Translations under genes and position numbers: made by a program | Notes under the pieces: model-generated | Told to the model about the DNA's origin: nothing | Database searches by the model: none | Seen by the model: only the letters and a program-made list of their open reading frames with translations | Shown here: piece after piece, positions 4,963-59,072 of the stretch | How positions within the stretch are numbered: the first letter of the stretch is position 1 | Layout of the letters: each line of letters begins with the position of its first letter | Assembly (NCBI RefSeq): GCF_006345805.1 | Contig: NC_042997.1 | Location: forward strand, 126,852,001-126,916,000 | DNA from: Octopus sinensis | Lineage: Eukaryota | DNA: 64,000 nt | Direction of reading: 5' to 3'

Positions 4963-5059
<97 letters not shown>

Positions 5060-5263
5060 TTCGAGACAAAACCACTATTTTGCAAAACAAACAGGAAAGA
5101 CTTAATCATACATAAAAATTTTTATGTATTGATTAAGTCTTTCCTTGTTTGTTTTGCAAATAGTGGTTTTGTCTCGAATTAATATTATATAATATTTTAC
5201 TATAAAATTGGATTTAATCCTAAATCTGATTTTTTCCCTGTAAATTTGGATTTATTCCCTAAT

Positions 5264-9002: not shown

Positions 9003-9375
9003 TTATATTGTTTGATTTTCAAACAGATATTCACGTCAGCAGGGCAGCTGATCTCTTCGACAGTACATTCTTCTTCCCTTCTCCAAAGAACAATATCTGA
9101 CTCGTTACGTTTACACTTGATAGGTGTTTTCATGGGAATGTTCCACCAATATTCCTTGTGTTGGTGTTTATGTACGTGTTCAGTAACAGAGAGTCTTTGT
9201 TTTGCAAATGGCACTGTGTATTTTTTTTTTTTGTTTTTTGGATAAGGTCGTGTAGCATAGGGACGTAGTTCGTTGATGACATTTTTGAATAGCTACAAAT
9301 CACATATGAGATGTCGCCCACAGAAATCGACCAATTTAAGGAAACGACGAAGTGCTGAAAAGAAACCAACTACAC
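9003..9375 (-). mobile_element. Opposite-strand fragment of a second RLE-LINE endonuclease region
   Basis: ORF 8921-9214 EYWWNIPMKTPIKCKRNESDIVLW...EISCPADVNI (PD..D/ExK-type endonuclease region). Confidence 0.7.
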
Positions 9376-9380
9376 TGTAA

Positions 9381-9612
9381 GGCGGCGAGCTAGCAGAAAC
9401 GTTAGCACGCCGGGTGAAATGCTTAGCAGTATTTTGTCTGCTGCTACGTTCTGAGTTCAAATTCCGCCGAGGTCGACTTTACCTTTTATCCTTTCGGGGT
9501 CGATTAAATAAGTACCAGTTACGCACTGGGGTTGATGTAATCGACTTAATCCGTTTATCTGCCCTTGTTTGTCCCCTCTGTGTTTAGCCCCTTGTGGGCA
9601 ATAAAGAAATAA
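9381..9612 (+). mobile_element. SINE family M, full length
   Basis: ggcggcgagctagcagaa head, B box gagttcaaattcc, core, aaagaaataa tail; degenerate TSD aactacactg/aactacattg. Confidence 0.9.
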
Positions 9613-10553
9613 GATACTAACTACATTGAAGTAATATATTTAGACAAGAACAAAATAACTGGAAGGTTAGAAAAACAAAACAAAATCAGAATGGATTTCA
9701 AGAATATATTTAAGGAAACACGGAGAAGAACTAGTGCATGGCTCGATGCCAGAGTTATTACCGACAATGATTTAAATCTTTGGGTAAAACCATAAACAGA
9801 AGTTCGAAGGTCTGATTCTAAAGGTACGGGACCAATACTTAATCACAAACAACTACAATAATAAAATACAGGAAGATGCTAACATCAAATGCAGAGTGTA
9901 GGTAGTGCAGTGAGAGAGTTGATCAAATTATCTCTGGTTGCCTTGTCATTGGCTTGGCCGAATATGGACGGAGACACGATTGAGTACGTAGGAATGTAGA
10001 CTGGGCAATATGCCAATACTTAGATGCGAAAACAGTCAAGAAATGGCATAAAATAATTATCATAGAACACTACACAACAACGACTTAGCCACAATCATAT
10101 GGGGGAAAAAAAACTATCAAAACTGACAAGGGGATCAAGGCGGATATAATAACAATCAAAAAGTGGAGAAAAACACACGCTCACTGACAGACATCAATAT
10201 CTCCTCTGATGAGAAAGAAGAAAAAAACATTGCACGGAATAAATTTGAGAAACTGTCCAAATAGAAGGATTTTGAAATTGAAATAAACAGGATATAGGAT
10301 AGCCAGCGAAGGATTATAAATGCTAGGAGTATGTGGTTTCATTTGTTTAGAATTGTTATTGATACATAATTTTCAGTAATTGATCAATTTACATTATTTA
10401 ACTTACGGTGGAGTTTTTCACGCTACACCATCATAAAACAAAAACCCTTAATTGCATTCTAAAATATCCCCTATAACAAACAAGCTGTTTATTTCTGTCT
10501 CTTTCTCTCTTACTCTCACGTCGTCAGTTTGTATATCACTCTGTTCATCTCTT

Positions 10554-11259: not shown

Positions 11260-11293
<34 letters not shown>

Positions 11294-11297
<4 letters not shown>

Positions 11298-11948
11298 ATA
11301 AAAGGGCTTAGTAAAATAAATTACTTTGCCGCATACTGAACTCATTAGAAATAGCAGCTAAAAAACTTTTTTAAAGCTATTTCTAATACTTAAAGAAAAT
11401 CTCTCTCATATATAGTGTTTGCTTATTTCAACTCACAAAAGTTTGGGGGTAAGGACATCGAAAAATCAAATGCTAAGGTTTCGAGAACGTACGTTTCAAG
11501 ATTAGTCAAAACAACATTTCTATCACGGCTCAGAAATTCCTTGGTTTGGATTTGGAAACACTGAAAATAAGAATGTTCTTATTTTCAGTGTTTCCAAATC
11601 CAAACCAAGGAATTTCTGAGCCGATGATAGAAATGTTGTTTTGACAATCTTGAAACGTACGTTCTCGAATAACCTTAGCATTTGATTTTTCGATGTCCTT
11701 ACCCCCAAACTTTTGTGAGTTGAATTAAGCAAACACTATATATGAGAGAGATTTTCTTTAAGTATTAGAAATACTTTAAAAAAGTTTTTAGCTGCTATTT
11801 CAATGAGTTCAGTATGCGGCAAAGTAATTTATTTTACTAAGCCCTTTTATATAATGTATAATTGAATTCGCCTTGAATGGTCCCTTGCATACTGAACACT
11901 TGTGAAATTGATTATAATTAATTAATTTTGCCCTCAATTGTTGAAATT
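11294..11948. mobile_element. Near-perfect palindrome (about 280-bp arms, centre 11574-11575) plus tail of about 95 bp, in (TA)n
   Basis: 11294-11573 is the reverse complement of 11576-11854 with few indels; degenerate hammerhead CCGATGA...GAAA-cgtacg-TT at 11614-11669. Confidence 0.85.
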
Positions 11949-13410: not shown

Positions 13411-13579
13411 CTCTATTTTTTGTTTTTCTGACTAAAATTTAGTGATAAACGAAATAAACACATACATTCAACATCAGACAGTAAGAAGGCATGTAATGTT
13501 CTATATTAAGTGTGGCACAGATAGGCCAGTTGAGCAGCTCTCCAGGATGACATTATTTTACATATCGAGCGACAAATAT

Positions 13580-13795
13580 TGATTTCAAATTTTGTCACAA
13601 GACCAGCAAGTTCCGGAGAGGGGCTAAGTCGATTACATCGACTCCCAGAGATCAACTGGTACTTATTTTATCGACCCTGAAAGGATGAAAGGCAAAGTCG
13701 ACCTCGGCGGAATTTGAACTCAGAACGTAAAGGCGGACGAAATACGGCTAAGCATTTTGCCCAGCATGTTAACGACTGCTGCCAGCTCGCCGCTT
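13580..13795 (-). mobile_element. SINE family M
   Basis: Reverse complement of family head and core. Confidence 0.85.
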
Positions 13796-14129
13796 TTTCA
13801 ACAACAAATATTAAAGCGAACATCGTAAGAATACTTCTCTCTGGTCCTTCAGAAACCTCATCACTTAGTAACACTCTATAAAGAGAAATTAAGTGAACTC
13901 AAGAGGACTACAGAGAAATTATGTATGCCGTCTACATCTCATTGAAAAACGAAAAATTAACAACAACAAAAAAATTGAGATAAATCAAACAGAAAATACC
14001 TTTAGAATCAGGTTCCTCCCCCTAAGCCCTAGGATTCATGAGGCCAGTTACTCAGTTTCCATGGCGTATAAGTAGTCGAGATCACATTATTTCCCCTGAA
14101 CAGGAAAACAGTCCGTTGCAGAGCAGCTT

Positions 14130-16739: not shown

Positions 16740-18210
16740 TTTCAGGTGAGATATTCATTAATTTCAAAGAAGTACAAAACTAGTCTCCTTCAAGGTAGGA
16801 CACCCTGACTTCAATACATTTGTAGAGCCCCAGCCAGTTCGTGAAGGCTCCGTGAAATCTTCCAAATTGGTGTCCATGACCCCTGTCACAGCTTCCTTCC
16901 TCTGATGCATCTTGGAGAACAACTAAGTCAAAGGAAGCAAGGTCTGGACTGTAGGCAGGGCGAGGGACAGTTGTGATGCCCATCTTTGTTAATTAGTTGG
17001 TTACCAGGATGGAATTGTGCACTGATGCATTGTCCTGGTGCAGGTACCACTGACCATGTGGAAGAGCTCTGGCCTTTTGCGACGAAATCTCTTCCTGAAC
17101 TCTCTCAAAACCTCCACAAAGTACTTTATCTTGACCGACTGGCCAGGGGGAACCCAGTGGATGTAGATGATGCTCTTGCTGGTGGACTTGCTTTGCCTGG
17201 CCTTCTTGGGTCTGGGATAGCTAGGATGCTTCTATTGAGCAATCTGTCTCTTGGTCTCTGGATCATAACAATAGATCCAGCTTTCGTCACAGGTCACCAA
17301 AGACTCAGGTACTCTTGCATTAGAGGTAATGAGTTCAACCATCTCCCTGCTGTCACCAACAGCTGTTCGTCACCCACAACTGTTCGTCACCAGGAACAAA
17401 CTTTGCACGAATTTTGCTCATGTTCAGATTTTCATGAGTAATTTTGTGCGCGCAAACTCCAAACTGTGTGCTTATTGTTCTTATAGGCACACGAACGTCT
17501 TCATTAAGGGAACTCTTTTACTCTTTTACTTGTTTCAGTCATTGACTGTGGCCATGCTGGAGCACCGCCTTTAGTCGAGCAAATCGACCCCAGGACTTAC
17601 TCTTTGTAAGCCTAGTACTTATTCTATCGGTCTCTTTTGCCGAACCGCTAAGTTACGGGGACGTAAACACACCAGCATCGGTTGTCAAGCGATGTTGGGG
17701 GGACAAACACAGACACACAAACATATAAACACAAATACATATATATACATATACATATATACGACGGGCTTCTTTCAGTTTCCGTCTACCAAATCCATTC
17801 AAGCCATTAGTAGGAGACACATGCCCAAGGTGCCACGCAGTGGGACTGAGCCCTGAACCATGTGGTTCGTAAGCAAGCTACTTACCACACAGCCACTCCT
17901 GTGCCTATGCGAACTTTTTCAATCAGCTCAAATGTTCTGACATCCTTCTCACCATCTTTCACCTCTTCACTACCGTACTTGAACCTCTTGTGCCAACAAA
18001 AACAAATACTTGGCTGATAAGCAGTTTCATGAGTCTCTGTAGCATTTTTCTTTGCTTAACACAAAACTTTATGGCATGGCGAGCTTCAAAACTGTCTTCA
18101 CGTCCCGGCTGCATTCTCTAAACTAGTCAGCTGTGAAAGCAGTGTCTAACAGAGTTTATGCAAAATACTGTTACAGTATCTCCTTCAATCTGGAATAAAA
18201 AGTTGGCAGA
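16740..18210 (-). mobile_element. Mariner transposon fossil interrupted by a SINE
   Basis: PAYSPDLASFD (YSPDLAP motif, ORF 16780-16983), VTCDESWIYCYDPETKRQ near 17245-17300, YLEGD C-terminus. Confidence 0.8.
17514..17908 (-). mobile_element. SINE family C, full length
   Basis: Reverse complement of 46770-47236 with an internal (TA/TG) tract. Confidence 0.9.
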
Positions 18211-18535: not shown

Positions 18536-19267
18536 TAAATGTATAGTAATGATATATTAAAATTACAACAACCTCGGAGAGTTATAACTGCCGTTCCTAA
18601 AAATGTCTCAAAACTTCTAGAATGGATCTCATATATTGTGACTGACGAATTAGCCTTTAGAAGATATTTTGTACACAACCCTTTTATATCACTGAATACT
18701 GCGTCATTAGTTTCATTTGTATCAGATCCTTACAGTAACATTCGTTAACCCTATCCACAAGGACTTCTTCAACCGTAGTTAGGCCTTAAAGGAAAAGCAC
18801 ATTTTAAATGGAAAAATATGAAGAAAACATTGCAGTTATCAGATATCAACCATATCAGCCTTGGAGTTATTTCTCATCTTCTTTAAGTTTTTGAGTTCTA
18901 TTTCCATGGAAACTGCTACAACTGGAAGTGGGAATTGTCGGTAAAAACTGACCATAAAAGATTTTCGGCAAGTTCGTTACACTTGGCTTTGAATACTCCT
19001 TGTATGTTGGTATCAGGTGACCACAAGTGATCTTAAATGATCAGCTATGGTTCTACATGGATGGCTTTGGGTAGAATAATAAGAATTGACCGTGGTCGCT
19101 TATGAGTCAATTGGAAAAAGAGAAAAGGCTTACAGATAATTTTGGAAAAATCTGTAACTGCTGATAAACAACGGAAAAGAGCGCATTGTTTTCAGTATTA
19201 GTCCCTTTTGGAGCTGGCTGCTAACATATTTACAATATTCTTGGTAATTAGAAAGCACTTAACTTTC

Positions 19268-19745
19268 AGTTCTATATTTAAGAGATGAGGAATTATGTAA
19301 ATTTTTTACATTATTTTCATTATTTACATTTGACGGATATTTCTTCTCATCTTGTTTGATATACCCTGATATACCCTGATATACCCTCCAGCCTTCCTGA
19401 GGTGTCTTGGGGAAATTTCGAACCTGGGTTCTCATTCCTAAGGTATTTTTCGATCTTCTTCTTCTTCTTCTTCTTCTTCTTGTTATTCAGGCCCTAAGAA
19501 AATATTAGATTTATAAGCCCTATAAATTCACTCCATAATTGCCACGGGCATATGGCTTAGTGGTTCCGAGTTCGATTCCTTAATGACAATAATAATAATA
19601 ATAACATAGAAAAGTACCTTAGGAATGAGAATCCAAGTTCGAAATTTCCCCAAGACATCTGATGAAGGCTGGAGCCGAAACGTTGTGTTAACAACAAACA
19701 AGATGAGGACAAATATCCGTCAAATGTAAATAATGTAAATAATGT
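19268..19745. mobile_element. Inverted-arm hammerhead-bearing element (family H3) with 14-bp TSD and internal A/B boxes
   Basis: TSD agcacttaactttc at 19254-19267 and 19746-19759; arms about 19295-19455 and 19603-19745; A box 19553-19563, B box 19570-19579. Confidence 0.85.
19654..19689 (+). ncRNA. Minimal type I hammerhead ribozyme motif
   Basis: gacat-CTGATGA-a-ggc tgga gcc-GAAA-cg-TT-gtgtt; intact core, palindromic ACGT stem III. Confidence 0.75.
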
Positions 19746-19978
19746 AGCACTTAACTTTCTAGGCGGTCACAGATAGTTTAATCAAAATTAAAAAGTGACA
19801 TTAAACATATAGGAACAGATACATACAAGTTGACGTGCGGGATTACTGGCGGCCTTGCGTTAGTTTTTTCTTTTTCTGTAAAATCTAAAACAGCTAACAA
19901 CAACGGCAGGGATAGTGTAGGTTATTAACAGGAACCTTCTAACTGATGACTTGACATCAGATGATAGTTGATCTTGCA

Positions 19979-21253
19979 CGGGGTGGGAGCAGAGAAGATG
20001 GACGTTTTTGAAAAATTCACAAAATCATTAATTTTAGCTGCAAACAAATTTTATTGACAGCAATTTGTTCGTCTTGAATTTGTGAAAATTAAGTGTGGAA
20101 AAGAACATCCATCATATGGTGTCCATTTTTATTGATGCTTTTCTGAAGGCGTTCTTGGAAGATGGCCTCCACGCATCCAGCATTGCTCTGTCGATTCCTT
20201 CAAATCGTCCAATGTACGGGGCTTATGCACATACACACGTGCTTTGAGGTCTTCCCACAAGAAATAATTACACATGGAGACAAATCAGGGGACCGAGAGA
20301 GCCAAGGAGTGTCAGCAAGCCTGGAAATGAGGTGGTCACCGAAGAGAGGGCGAAGAATGTCCATTGATGCTCTGGCTGTGTGAGACGTCGCCCCATCCTG
20401 CTGAAACTACACACGTCGAATCGGCATACGTTTTCATTGTAATTCAGGCACAAAGAAGTTGTTTATCATCTCGATGTAACACTCGGAGTTCATAGTAAAA
20501 ACATTTCCCTTATTGTCTTCAAAAAAGTAAGGACCGATAACGACATCTTTTCCAACATCACACCAGACCGTAATTTTGGGCTGTTCAGTGGTCTTTCGTA
20601 CAGTTCTCTCGGATTTTCAAGAGCTTAATAACAACAGTTCTGTTGATTAACCATGCCATTGAGATGAAAATGAACTTCATCACTCATTAACAAAATGAGG
20701 TTGTCATTTGCCTCAAAAATTGCTTCCATCTGACGTGCAAAGTTAAGTTGCTGTGCATAGTCCCATGGTTTCAACTGTTGCCCAGTGATCAATTTGTACG
20801 GGAGGAAATGCAGGTATTCATGCAAAATGCACCTTACCGATCGACTACCGATGCCAAGTTCAGTAGAATGCTTTCGAGCAGAGCGATTCGGACTCCGTAA
20901 CAAAGCTTGTCCGACGCGTTCCACATTTTCCGGTGTCCGTACTGTTCGTGGCGCCCCCACCGGTCTCCTATTCATTAGTGTACCTATTCACCCAAAATAA
21001 GTTTGTGTTACGGTTGGGAACAGTCTGATATCGGTGAATGTTAAAGTGGCGACGAAACCCACGCTATTCTTCACGTAGCTGTCGTAGACAAACACGCGAT
21101 GCTCCATCGTCCACAGCACCATGGCATCACCTGAAAAGAAAAAACTAATACGAAGGCATCGCGAACCGGAAGGTACCTGTCGAATATATGTCCCTCCTCC
21201 TCGGATTGAGTAATAGCCGTTTCAAAAACGCCCGTCCTCTCAGCCCCACCCCA
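19979..21253 (-). mobile_element. Near full-length Tc1/mariner-superfamily transposon (rosa/DD41D-like), pseudogenised
   Basis: Imperfect TIRs of about 33 bp (ggggtggg..agag..g..gg.cgtttttgaaa), TA at right end; PRTVRTPENVERV...RSPNRSARK...MSDEVHFHLNGMVNQQN, FQQDGATSH, RSPDLSP. Confidence 0.85.
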
Positions 21254-23528: not shown

Positions 23529-23890
23529 ACTCTTTTACTCTTTTACTTGTTTCAGTCACTTGACTGAGGCCATGCTAGAGCACCGCCTTTAGTCGAGGAA
23601 ATCGGCCCCAGCACTTATTCTTTGTAAGCCTAGTACGTATTCTATCGGTCTCTTTTGCCGAACCGCTAATGTTACGGGGACGTAAACACACCTGCATCGA
23701 TTTTCAAGCGATGTTGGGGGGGGGGGGCAAACACAGACGCACAAAGACACACACATATGTATATATACATATACATATATACGACGGGCTTCTTTCAGTT
23801 TCCGTCTACCAAATCCACTCACAGGGCTTTGGTCGATCCGAGGCTATATGCCACGCAGTGGGACTAAACCCGGAACCATGTGGTTGGTTA
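23529..23890 (-). mobile_element. SINE family C, 5' truncated
   Basis: Family tail and body on the minus strand, inside a (CAG/CAA)n tract. Confidence 0.85.
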
Positions 23891-24720
23891 GCCGCAGCAG
23901 CAGCAGCAACAACAACAGCAACAACTGCAACAACAGGAAAAACAAAAACATTTTTTTTACTGCAGGCACAAGGCCTGGAATTTTGGGGGAGGGGTAGCTG
24001 ATTACACCGTCCCTATTGATCATCTTGTACTTTTTTTTATCAACCCCAAAAGGATGAAAGGTCGATATCGGTGAAATTTGTACTTAGAACGTAAAGACGG
24101 ACAAAATGCTGCGTCTACGCTGTTGCTTAGCTTGCAAGAAATAGCAGCCAAATTTCACTCAAATCATATTCTACCATCGTAAAAAATAAAGAACATATTG
24201 AGTAATATCGTCTTGCATCGACTATGTCTTATGAAAACATGGAGTGGTCAGGACAGGAGCGTCTTTGATCATAGATTTGCTCAATCAAATCTGGAGCTAA
24301 ACAGTAGCAATGACAAGTACATGTGCAAACGAGGGAGCCTCTTCATAGTCGTCTGTTGCCAATGATCATGAGATCTCCCTCATATCACCCTCTGCCGTCT
24401 TTAAAACGGGAACACAAGTTATCTCAGGTTACGGCTACTTCGTGTTACAGGATTCAGTAGTTACGGAAATTGCAAAGTATAACACTAATTTGGGAAATAC
24501 GAACTGAAATTTCGCTTTTACGGGAACTGGAATAAATTTAAAAACCACGCTTTCTTTTTAGACAAAACACCACTTCTCGACTTATTAGCAAAGACGAAAG
24601 CAGTTAATTTGAAAACTAGAGACACAGCATAAAGAGACATATATAAATATACATGAACACGCACAGATGTGTGTGTGTGTGTGAATCTGTACGTATTTGA
24701 GCTTCTTCACGGCTCTTACT

Positions 24721-55471: not shown

Positions 55472-56419
55472 CATCATCATCATCATTGTTCGACCGTGGT
55501 CGAGACAATGGAATTTACTATGTTACGCCAGACTTCACGGTCCGTCATAGCATTACGGAGGTCCTGTTGCTGGATGCCTGTATCCCTGGAGATTACATCA
55601 GGGTAGGAGAGTGTGCGCCCTCTGGTGTTGCGAGTAGATGGCTTCCAGAGGAGAAGAGTAGAAATTACTTCTTTTTCAGCTCTACAACAATGTCCAGCAA
55701 ACTGGACTCTCCTACCTTTCACAAGAGATGACGCAGGTGGCAATTTCCCATATATTTGCATTTTGGTTGGATGGCGCCTCCACGAGAGATTTTGAGCTCT
55801 CATAAGGAGGCGAGTGTAGGTTCCATCCAACCGCCTCTCAAGCTTCTTTGATAACGTCCAGGTTTCTGAGCCATATAGTAGAATTGGTTCGACTGTGGCT
55901 TTGAATATTTCAAGTTTGAAGTCTTTACTTAGATTTGATGACCAGATCTTATGCATGTCATTACAGGCTGACCAGGCCATACCCTTTCTAGTTAGAAAGT
56001 CTTTTCCAGATGATGATATGTATGACCCAAGATATTTATAATCAGAAACCATATTTAAAGGCGCACTGTTGAGAGTGTGGATGATGCAATCACTGTTGGA
56101 CAGGCACTTGTTTATGTATTCAGTTTTGGCCTCATTGAGGTAAAGACCTACACAATTTGAGGCTTGTTCAAGAGATTGTAAAAGAGACTGGGCATTGGAG
56201 AGAGAATCACTGATAAGAGCGATGTCGTCAGCAAAGTCAGTGTCTGTCAAGTACTCAGCTGGGTGTCTGGAACTTCTTCTTGGTTTTATTTCAAAGCCCT
56301 TGCCAGAGATGGTATCAACTGACATACGTAGCACATAATCAACAACAATGATGAAAAGAAATGGGGCGAGTGTGTCTCCCTGCAGTATTCCGGCTTCGAT
56401 TGAGAAAGATGATGTTTCT
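55472..56419 (-). mobile_element. 5'-truncated RTE-clade LINE, stop-free RT C-terminal half with (TGA)n tail
   Basis: ORF 55483-56451: GILQGDTLAPFLF, DFADDIAL, YKYLGS, LLYGSETW, QFAGHC; ccaat at both junctions. Confidence 0.92.
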
Positions 56420-57378
56420 CCAATAGGTAAAGATGTGATTGCTAACTTCAAGATATATTATATGAGAAGAACTTACAAACAACTTATGAAGGCAATTCAC
56501 TTGGAGGATAAATCTACAGTTGGAAATTTCTGGAAGAAATTCAACATAATGCATACTGTGGATAATATAGCTTCATGAGATGAAGTGAAACCTTCACCTT
56601 TGAATAGGACTTGGAGAAGTATACGACCAAACTATATCCGTGACACTACAAGTTTTTCTCAAACAGTAAGTCTACAACAAATTCGGACAGATATATTGTG
56701 ACTCTTGCAAAGGGTGTAAGATTTGAGGATGTTATAGAGGATTATGCGACTGAGTTGCTAATGTCTCAGAAAGGAATTTTATTTAATCAGGAACCAATGT
56801 TTTAGTAATTGAACATACTTCAATTGGCTACAGAAATTTTTGTTAAACGATTGAAACTTAGAGAGGAAGGTTTGCAGGTTTTTGCTGATAATGATACTCA
56901 TCGAGAACGTAGCATGAAAATTACAAGAGGAGTTTACAATGAGCCCTGTTTCTATACCGAACTGTACAAAGAAACGATGTGTCATAAACAGCACAACTTT
57001 GAAGAAGCTCCTCGACCCTCAAGCTGATTTCGTGATATTAAACTATAAGATAGTCAATATTGTCTTTTGTCCTCCTAGTAACGCTCGTTCCACCACCGCC
57101 TCTCATACAGTTGTCAACATCTTTTGTGGTAAGAACGTACTCCTTCGATATTAAGATTCTTATTCATTCCCCAAAGTATTCCTCTTGAACTGTTTTCGTG
57201 TTTTTATGTATCTACACCGTACCGTGTATGTTTAAAAGTTGTTGTTTTCATGTGCAAAGGCGATCATGTTGCTTGTTCTGTGTTGTTGAATTTTCCGTTC
57301 TTCTTTCTATTTTATTTTTGTTCTCCAAAAACGTCCGTAGGAATGCAATCTCACTTGGCAATATGAAAATCAATAAAG

Positions 57379-58230: not shown

Positions 58231-58255
58231 TGTGTGGAGAGAGAGAGAGGAGAGA

Positions 58256-58290
58256 ATATGACGTTTCGAGCATGGCTATTCGTCAGATAT
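58256..58290 (-). ncRNA. Minimal hammerhead ribozyme motif
   Basis: atat-CTGACGA-a-tagc cat gctc-GAAA-cg-TC-atat; intact core, GUC triplet, one stem II mismatch. Confidence 0.65.
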
Positions 58291-59072
58291 AGGAAGCTAC
58301 CAAGCACAAAAGTCAAACGTTAATCTCAGAGCAGCCTCACTTGTATAAATATTTAAAACTTAAATTTTAAAGACAAGGCTTTCTTTCCAGGACGAGAAAA
58401 TTATCCAGTTCTTATTGATTACTGACACTCTTAAAAATTCTAGATAATATAATGATATACTAATATAATACTCATTCATTTATATCATATAAGCTCACTC
58501 GTAAAGGAATGCGCCATTAACATGCATGCACAAGAAATTTTTAATGACACCCAAAGGCATTCTATTAGATTGGCATAGGTTCATTGATTCATTCATTTGC
58601 ACGAAGAAGCCGTTATTAGCCAATAAATGTGCTGTTCCCTTTTCCCACAACGGCAATTAGCGTCATACAATATCCCCACTGGAGTCGGTGTTAAGAGGTG
58701 TAACATTTTTTCCTGGTCCAACATGTTTGTTATTTCAAGTGGTGTTCTAAAAAGTGTATTTATCCCTTGGCGTTTCACTGTCCAATATCGAACCTCTCTT
58801 TTTTGCACTCTCTTGTCATATATATATATCGTTCTCCCAGAGTCGTGCACTAAACACTTCTAGCATTTCGTCTTACCAGAACTTCCACCCTCAATAATTT
58901 CCTTCCTGCTCATGGATTATCTATAGATATCAACCAAGAAAAGTTAAAGACGAGCCTCATGCCTGGAGCAATACCTATCACTCTATATCTTTCAATAAAT
59001 ACACCAAACATGCGCACACGAACATACAATACATACGCGCACGTACACATATTAGTACTATTAGGCTGTGTG

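What the first reader, a model, noticed from the sequence alone, without database searches (positions are those of the whole stretch)
19254..19759. Candidate tRNA-promoter plus hammerhead non-autonomous retroelement (Penelope-dependent SINE or retrozyme-like)
Seen: one 478-bp insertion bounded by a perfect 14-bp TSD. It has inverted arms of about 150 bp, an intact minimal hammerhead core at 19654-19689, a tail of about 30 nt on only one arm, and Pol III A-box (TGGCTTAGTGG) and B-box (GTTCGATTCC) matches just upstream of, and co-oriented with, the ribozyme-bearing arm. A second copy lies at 27745-27982. Established: Penelope-like elements carry minimal hammerheads in their pseudo-LTRs and often insert as inverted partial copies with a one-sided tail, whereas typical SINEs borrow LINE tails. 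Inference: a tRNA-headed element mobilised by Penelope machinery, which would be an unusual SINE class. Caveat: the A and B boxes are only about 6 nt apart, so this copy must be internally deleted.
Basis: partly seen in the sequence, partly recalled or inferred. Interest (0 to 1): 0.85.

Follow-up and report, generated by a model that had tools for sequence, protein, structure and literature searches.

The report
Penelope element with tRNA-like promoter head
This is a broken, folded-back copy of a protein-coding Penelope-type jumping gene whose end repeat carries a tRNA-like sequence just ahead of its ribozyme, and that sequence likely served as its transcription start and would explain the many short SINE-like copies in this genome.

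Summary
In detail: 14-bp TSD, inverted arms, one-sided tail, minimal hammerhead, A/B boxes 6 nt apart. But this is not a stand-alone SINE. The arm is the first ~52 codons of an RT + GIY-YIG Penelope ORF, and this copy also carries that ORF's last codons and stop (19496-19516). The unusual part is real. A 73-nt tRNA-register head (28 nt deleted here) sits inside the pseudo-LTR between the stop codon and the hammerhead. It follows the ORF end in 25 of 30 loci, and no free-standing head was found. Of 43 arm-selected insertions that reach the head's first 17 nt, 38 stop there and 5 run on, about 27 times the background truncation rate. Near-full-length copies also begin there. The head therefore likely marks the RNA start. 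Short head-to-tail copies with TSDs (family total roughly 20,000) would be run-off products of reverse transcription started near the 5' end. Short and long copies share age and variants, so no separate SINE lineage was seen. Pol III use is untested; a TATA box at -28 makes Pol II a serious rival. New variant of a known kind.

The parts
19254..19267 (.). Left target-site duplication (14 bp)
19268..19298 (-). PLE 'tail' (~31 nt), on the left arm only; in long copies it runs on into the ORF N-terminus
19299..19454 (-). Left (inverted) arm = start of the Penelope ORF (ATG at 19435-19433); hammerhead destroyed by core changes and a local triplication
19455..19491 (-). Spacer tract of the left arm ((AAG)n in place of (AAT)n) plus the last bases of the head; inversion junction at about 19491-19494
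   Evidence: read from the sequence; family order
19495..19540 (+). 3' end of the RT-GIY-YIG ORF (KKILDL*, stop 19514-19516) and short spacer; TATAA at 19512-19516, about 29 nt before head position 1
19541..19581 (+). tRNA-like head, internally deleted by 28 nt and 3'-clipped; A box 19553-19563, B box 19570-19579
19588..19604 (+). (AAT)n spacer
   Evidence: present across the family
19605..19745 (+). Right arm = start of the Penelope ORF (ATG 19625), frameshifted by a 10-nt deletion; ends at the tail-less 3' end
19654..19689 (+). Minimal type I hammerhead (core 19659-19665 and 19677-19684; predicted cut after 19684), overlapping the ORF; activity untested
   Evidence: motif type as in PMC4209133
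19746..19759 (.). Right target-site duplication (14 bp)
27744..27982 (.). Second copy: two inverted arm fragments, no head, tail on the right arm, no TSD found

Best explanation
The insertion is a 5'-truncated, inverted copy of a protein-coding Penelope-like retrotransposon whose pseudo-LTR holds a tRNA-like head that likely acted as its transcription start, probably as an RNA polymerase III A/B-box promoter. Shown: the unit order is ORF stop, head, (AAT)n, ATG, hammerhead, tail, then the rest of a DKG-RT-GIY-YIG ORF; and insertions pile up with their 5' end at head positions 1-17. Inferred: RNA begins at head position 1. The element's protein would nick AT-rich DNA and start reverse transcription inside the RNA, at the two ends of the tail, as shown in vitro for the anole element PAc. 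Starting at the site near the RNA's 5' end and running off it would give the abundant short head-to-tail copies (about 260-400 bp). Starting in the 3' pseudo-LTR would give longer copies that retain ORF end, such as the window copy. Fold-back or template switching at short palindromes would give the inverted arms. The short copies look like SINEs but are likely by-products of the coding element, not a self-propagating lineage. The family looks dead (5-8% from the column majority; no complete ORF among the copies examined).
For: Coding element: 25 of 30 endonuclease-selected loci have the head directly after the ORF stop and 23 of 30 have the hammerhead downstream. The arm reads in frame into the N-terminus in natural copies L156, L159 and L160 and matches the start of full-length protein P0003 (39% over 203 aa, E 2e-41). 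RVT_1 matches, and the L175 frame is 68% identical to P0001. tRNA-likeness: the best of 57 genomic tRNAs is Arg(TCT), colinear over ~67 nt, z 8.2 against shuffles; a profile of 87 heads finds the heads of other SINE-like repeats (best E 0.001). 5' boundary: 38 of 43 end at head 1-17 against 5 that continue; hazard 0.127 versus 0.0046 per nt; 11 of 13 among non-inverted copies. ORF-bearing copies L156, L157, L162, L399, L402 and L408 also start at head 1-10 (L395 is the same insertion as L156). Three chimeras join onto head position 1-2 exactly (L396, L408, L421). Direct repeats of 9 bp or more flank 31 of 69 measurable loci against 19 of 1352 shuffled pairs. 41 long and 85 short copies have similar divergence and no diagnostic substitutions. 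No TTTT run is shared on the sense strand of 16 long copies.
Against: Rfam's tRNA model does not match the head at E up to 10, ARAGORN finds none in 29 loci, and the head does not fold as a cloverleaf (z +0.9). A TATAA at -28 with a pyrimidine-purine step at +1 fits a Pol II start equally well. Position 1 coincides with the hairpin GCCC-AC-GGGC, so fold-back could inflate the peak among inverted copies. The TTTT deficit is weak (P 0.005-0.03 by null model), and A runs are depleted about as much (P 0.04). RNA-seq from a related label showed no place where many molecules begin or end and no strand bias, and 63-68% of laid reads run on into unlike sequence. PMC10886601 argues Pol III is too weakly processive for autonomous elements. 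The samples are the best-scoring hits, not random draws, and 31 of 89 loci have no head within 1 kb.
Confidence: 0.6

Rival explanations
1. Same element and same RNA start, but the promoter is RNA polymerase II (TATA at -28 overlapping the ORF stop, initiator at head position 1); the tRNA-like head is a captured passenger in the 5' leader.
For: TATAA lies 28 nt before head position 1 in L077, L078, L080 and L089. D. virilis Penelope has an internal promoter likened to LINE promoters (PMC2377424 abstract), and a Chlamys PLE has its TSS in the pLTR with polyadenylated reads (PMC8557442 passages). A translated mRNA is normally Pol II (established knowledge).
Against: The start falls 13 nt before the A box, where a tRNA-type promoter would place it (recalled rule). 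Box consensus and spacing are intact although the stems no longer pair. Copies that begin at the head lose the TATA but keep the boxes.
Confidence: 0.22
2. One reading: an independent tRNA-headed SINE lineage, born from this pseudo-LTR, amplified by its own Pol III transcripts using Penelope protein in trans.
For: Short units far outnumber long ones (5 of 89 reach the ORF end; first-look candidates 35,578 for the arm against 4,556 for the endonuclease). Clean head-to-tail units with 11-15 bp TSDs exist (L312, L329). The short unit of the typical copies has no TTTT. The in-frame 9-nt repeat variant differs in frequency between short and long copies (p 0.005-0.017).
Against: No substitution separates short from long copies and ages match; the 9-nt difference may come from my query, which carries the longer variant. 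No free head was found in 1.66 Mb of held DNA except one at a locus edge. PAc needs RNA to 172 nt into the ORF (PMC11167929), which by analogy lies about 50 nt past the tail that short copies end on. The window copy itself includes the ORF stop.
Confidence: 0.12
3. The 5' peak is not an RNA start but a reverse-transcriptase stop or fold-back point at the GCCC-AC-GGGC hairpin; the head is neutral SINE debris fixed in the master element.
For: Many inverted junctions sit on this hairpin or on other microhomologies (recurrent head 3/14 and 42/25 junctions). 27 of the 38 peak loci are inverted.
Against: 11 of 13 non-inverted copies also end there. The hairpin is only 4 bp, and the much longer hammerhead stem causes no comparable stop. 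Long copies read through the head routinely.
Confidence: 0.06

Closest known systems
Penelope/Poseidon-clade PLEs, e.g. PAc of Anolis (PMC11167929, parts 1-2 of 4 read; PMC8557442, passages; PMC4209133, part 1 of 4 and passages)
   Same: Single RT + C-terminal GIY-YIG ORF, DKG motif, pseudo-LTR with a minimal type I hammerhead overlapping the ORF start, 5' truncation, inverted partial copies, one-sided 30-40 nt tail.
   Different: This family has a 73-nt tRNA-register A/B-box head and an (AAT)n tract between the stop codon and the hammerhead, and a sharp 5' boundary at that head. I saw no such feature in the parts of these papers that I read.
TRIMp3: Cassandra, Helenus, Ajax (PMC10886601, part 1 of 6 and passages)
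   Same: Small-RNA-derived Pol III promoter motifs inside the terminal repeat; boxes kept while the tRNA fold is lost; possible origin by SINE insertion into the repeat.
   Different: Those are non-coding LTR elements with PBS/PPT and 4-5 bp TSDs, and the author expects autonomous partners not to share the promoter. Here the head sits in the coding element itself, and it is a PLE.
Schistosome Sm-alpha / Sj-alpha SINE-like elements (PMC6765202 and PMC2770079, passages)
   Same: tRNA-related, apparently Pol III-transcribed repeat carrying a hammerhead.
   Different: Those occur as tandem repeats whose cleaved monomers carry the promoter at the 3' end, with no coding partner named in the passages read. 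Here the ribozyme is the minimal PLE type, inside an ORF start, in inverted copies with a PLE tail.
Non-LTR (animal) retrozymes (PMC7229834, passages; bioRxiv 10.64898/2026.07.22.740005, parts 1-3 of 5)
   Same: Short non-coding hammerhead units derived from PLE pseudo-LTRs.
   Different: Retrozymes are head-to-tail tandems with two or more co-oriented ribozymes. The window copy is head-to-head with one intact ribozyme, and no tRNA head is described in the parts read.

Membership tests
EN+ Penelope-like element | One ORF with RT and C-terminal GIY-YIG endonuclease (CCHH) | tested here: met
   RVT_1 E 4e-9; 551-codon natural frame in L175 from DKG to the endonuclease end, 68% to P0001. The endonuclease was recognised by motif by eye (VYSIPCSC..YKGET..H..H); Pfam GIY-YIG gave no hit.
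EN+ Penelope-like element | Pseudo-LTRs, direct or inverted, with 5' truncation | tested here: met
   L157 has head-arm-tail at both ends of the ORF; 54 of 89 arm-selected loci are inverted.
EN+ Penelope-like element | Minimal type I hammerhead in the pseudo-LTR | tested here: met
   Motif and stems present; a strict core pattern matched 65 of 126 arms. Cleavage not tested.
EN+ Penelope-like element | 30-40 nt tail on one end | tested here: met
   Window copy; two 3' ends 30 nt apart among laid reads and contigs, at 2423/2424 and 2454.
Penelope/Poseidon clade | [quoted passage not shown] | tested here: met
   Linker C-x-C-xx-C absent from L175 and P0001-P0008, present in the second family L381.
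Penelope/Poseidon clade | RT groups with named Poseidon references | tested here: inconclusive
   The tree groups it with unnamed P0001-P0004 (100/100), but no named reference was available.
tRNA-derived SINE | tRNA-derived head with A and B boxes at tRNA spacing | tested here: met
   Colinear with genomic tRNA-Arg(TCT), z 8.2; A-box T to B-box G is 45 nt. Rfam and ARAGORN negative; parent isotype unsettled (only 57 tRNA sequences, 10 amino acids, compared).
tRNA-derived SINE | Non-coding lineage that replicates apart from its autonomous partner | tested here: not met
   The head is part of the coding element; no diagnostic substitutions between 85 short and 41 long copies. A small, score-selected sample.
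tRNA-derived SINE | Transcribed by RNA polymerase III | not testable with these tools
   Standard RNA-seq was uninformative; only indirect support from the 5' boundary.
Non-LTR retrozyme | Tandem units with two or more co-oriented hammerheads releasing a circular RNA | tested here: not met
   The window copy is inverted with one intact ribozyme. A few deleted derivatives elsewhere do have two co-oriented arms; circles not testable.

The most novel reading that the evidence does not exclude
A protein-coding retrotransposon that captured a tRNA gene fragment and had its whole ~2.8-kb, TTTT-free mRNA made by RNA polymerase III, so that every new copy starting at the head carried its own internal promoter and no longer needed the tandem arrangement that other Penelope elements rely on; its 5'-proximal run-off products then seeded about 20,000 SINE-like hammerhead units, a direct route from PLE to SINE.
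Probability: 0.2. Interest if true: 0.85.

Novelty: new variant of a known kind. Interest (0 to 1): 0.55.

Why it matters
How Penelope elements are transcribed and why they leave so many short hammerhead fragments is open; only a few promoters and one in vitro system are described in the papers read. This family gives a sharp, genome-scale mark of the RNA start, which fits the internal-initiation model from the anole element. It extends the 'small-RNA promoter in a terminal repeat' theme from non-coding LTR elements to a coding PLE. It also warns that annotation pipelines could file these short copies as SINEs. If Pol III made the coding RNA, that would be very surprising.

Tried and rejected
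Rfam on the whole window gave only weak miRNA/snoRNA matches to palindromes and microsatellites in the 150 rows listed, of 181; Rfam on the head and arm of L127 gave no tRNA or hammerhead. ARAGORN found 0 genes in the window and in 29 loci. The head against phage records gave one weak hit on an annotated tRNA (E 0.05), not used as evidence. Pfam found no GIY-YIG in this family's frames. Relatives with DNA context were not obtained: metagenome scans gave 0 loci and 9 distant loci (I looked only at L393), and the viral scan gave 0. Whether P0001-P0004 have a tRNA head is therefore unknown. Sequencing runs: no RNA holder listed on record. Three raw RNA runs of a related label looked unstranded and dominated by read-through of many copies, so they say nothing on promoter use. 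TTTT avoidance was kept only as weak support. 'A SINE landed in the AAT tract next to loose pseudo-LTR pieces' was rejected because the head is copied with the arm in inverted pairs and sits behind the ORF stop. Earlier scan findings: none returned. Literature searches listed no paper whose title, abstract start or passages read describe a tRNA-headed PLE; most listed papers were seen only as listings. Repbase, Dfam, SINEBase and all supplements (including the repeat library of PMC13282606) were not seen and may already hold this family.

Full report
Observation. The left-arm ribozyme has lost its core. The second copy at 27744-27982 is two inverted arms without head or TSD. The genome G000 has 2.72 Gb in 13,516 contigs. 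From size and repeat types I guess a cephalopod; this is recalled, not tested.

The family. The arm gave 3,030 first-look candidates as DNA and 35,578 as peptide. Forty evenly placed 10-kb stretches held 3 insertions in 400 kb, or about 20,000 genome-wide (Poisson range roughly 4,000-60,000). Of 29 other arm-selected loci, 25 hold a longer version of the head. The window copy has lost 28 nt between the boxes. Of 30 head-selected loci (one is the query), 27 have the arm downstream on the same strand and all 30 adjoin some piece of the element. A head profile run over 1.66 Mb of held DNA found one strong hit away from the element, at a locus edge, and otherwise only weak hits to other repeats' heads.

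It is a coding Penelope element. Searching with the 47 nt before the head retrieved copies that continue upstream into a reading frame ending in a GIY-YIG-type domain and a stop codon. The window copy carries the last six codons and that stop (19496-19516). Of 30 loci chosen by the endonuclease protein, 25 have the head directly behind the stop and 23 have the hammerhead further on. At the other end, the tail runs straight into the N-terminus, DKG motif and RT. L157 is a near-complete copy with head-arm-tail at both ends. The arm is coding: ATG 34 nt before the ribozyme core, the core read as TPDEG and PKRCV, and 39% identity over 203 aa to the start of the full-length protein P0003. PMC11167929 reports the same overlap of ribozyme and ORF start in PAc. 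The linker lacks the Neptune/Nematis cysteine motif, which a second PLE family in this genome has (criterion from PMC8557442), so Penelope/Poseidon is the likely clade; no named reference was in the tree. Sixteen long copies are 5.1-8.4% from the column majority, and the longest natural open frame among 20 long loci is 551 codons. The family looks extinct.

The head. Read in tRNA register it is 73 nt (head positions 7-79) with the A box, a CT-NNN-AA loop, a 5-nt variable region and a T-loop at canonical spacing (read from the sequence). It aligns end to end with a genomic tRNA-Arg(TCT), the best of 57 tRNA sequences (z 8.2), though other isotypes score close behind. Rfam, ARAGORN and folding do not recognise it as a tRNA, as expected for a decayed SINE-type head and as reported for Helenus (PMC10886601). 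The young second PLE family showed no such head in 6 loci.

The 5' boundary. I fetched 90 of the 150 loci listed for the arm peptide, a query blind to what lies upstream, and dropped one exact duplicate (L294 and L295 also look alike and were kept). Of 89, 31 have no head within 1 kb, 15 end in head 18-82, 38 end in head 1-17 and 5 continue into the ORF end. That is 0.127 against 0.0046 ends per nt. Among non-inverted copies the split is 11 against 2. Copies that carry the ORF's N-terminus start there too: L156, L157 and L162 and L399, L402 and L408 (L395 is the same insertion as L156). L163/L411 runs further upstream as a partial tandem, and L421 starts inside the head. Three chimeras join onto head position 1-2. 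Direct repeats of 9-15 bp flank 31 of 69 measurable loci, against 19 of 1352 shuffled pairs; a few of the 31 are microsatellite or element sequence.

Mechanism. Shown in PAc (PMC11167929): reverse transcription starts inside the RNA, at two sites near the ORF start that bracket the tail. The two 3' ends 30 nt apart seen here fit that. Inferred for this family: RNA starts at head position 1; initiation at the first tail and run-off at the RNA end gives the common short copies; initiation in the 3' pseudo-LTR gives copies with ORF end, like the flagged one; fold-back at short palindromes gives inverted arms (54 of 89). Against a separate SINE lineage, 85 short and 41 long copies have like divergence (arm medians 4.3% and 4.6%) and differ only in the frequency of an in-frame 9-nt repeat, which my query may have biased.

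Which polymerase. For Pol III: intact boxes, a start 13 nt before the A box, and no shared TTTT in the sense strand (0 observed, 2.8-4.6 expected, P 0.005-0.03; the second family has 5 observed, about 5 expected). Against: A runs are similarly depleted, a TATAA lies at -28, and known PLE promoters appear to be Pol II-like (PMC2377424 abstract; PMC8557442 passages). RNA-seq was uninformative. A contig from a differently labelled organism (X19, record 8) spans the ORF-end/head junction, so the fusion is not private to this assembly.

Comparison and verdict. It is a member of the EN+ PLEs. It works like a SINE or TRIMp3 in placing tRNA-type boxes at its 5' end, but fails SINE membership on independence. 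It is not a retrozyme. Eight literature searches showed no description of a tRNA-headed PLE in what I read; Repbase, Dfam and supplements were not seen. My odds: PLE membership about 0.97, head as RNA start about 0.85, Pol III driving that start about 0.55-0.6, Pol III making the full coding RNA about 0.2. New variant of a known kind; interest 0.55.

Noticed in passing
L401, L402, L404, L413/L414 (around locus 1320-1790): Recurrent internally deleted mini-elements, arm + first 116-118 nt past the tail + arm, with two co-oriented hammerheads about 295 nt apart. Three share nearly the same junction on contig C27, which suggests a small retrozyme-like sub-lineage; the query ended at nt 116, which may bias this.
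   Followed up: no
L380-L385: A second, young PLE family with open frames of 624-876 codons, about 96-98% identical copies, a Neptune-type linker cysteine motif, a C-rich pseudo-LTR and a variant hammerhead core (TTGAAGA); no tRNA-like head seen.
   Followed up: partly
L005, L023, L026, L271; L018, L020, L028, L281, L335: Two other repeats sit in the (AAT)n spacer of the element; one ends in a reading frame resembling R4/Dong-type retrotransposons (name recalled). The spacer is an insertion hotspot.
   Followed up: no
window 19628-19648: The first codons of the arm contain a second B-box-like stretch resembling head positions 50-64; possibly an older captured tRNA piece.
   Followed up: no
window about 58250-58295, minus strand: Another minimal hammerhead-like motif of a different sequence family; a weaker candidate lies at 31252 on the plus strand.
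   Followed up: no
window 11288-11860: 573-bp near-perfect palindrome (96%), MITE-like or fold-back; shorter palindromes at 2712-2917 and 5042-5195.
   Followed up: no
window 55483-56457 (-) and 20625-20987 (-): A 324-codon reverse transcriptase frame (RVT_1 E 2e-10) and a transposase-like fragment judged by eye with no Pfam hit.
   Followed up: partly
window 9374-9618, 13579-13800, 17512-17906, 23529-23892 and others: Several other abundant SINE-like families, some with tRNA-type heads only weakly similar to this head.
   Followed up: no
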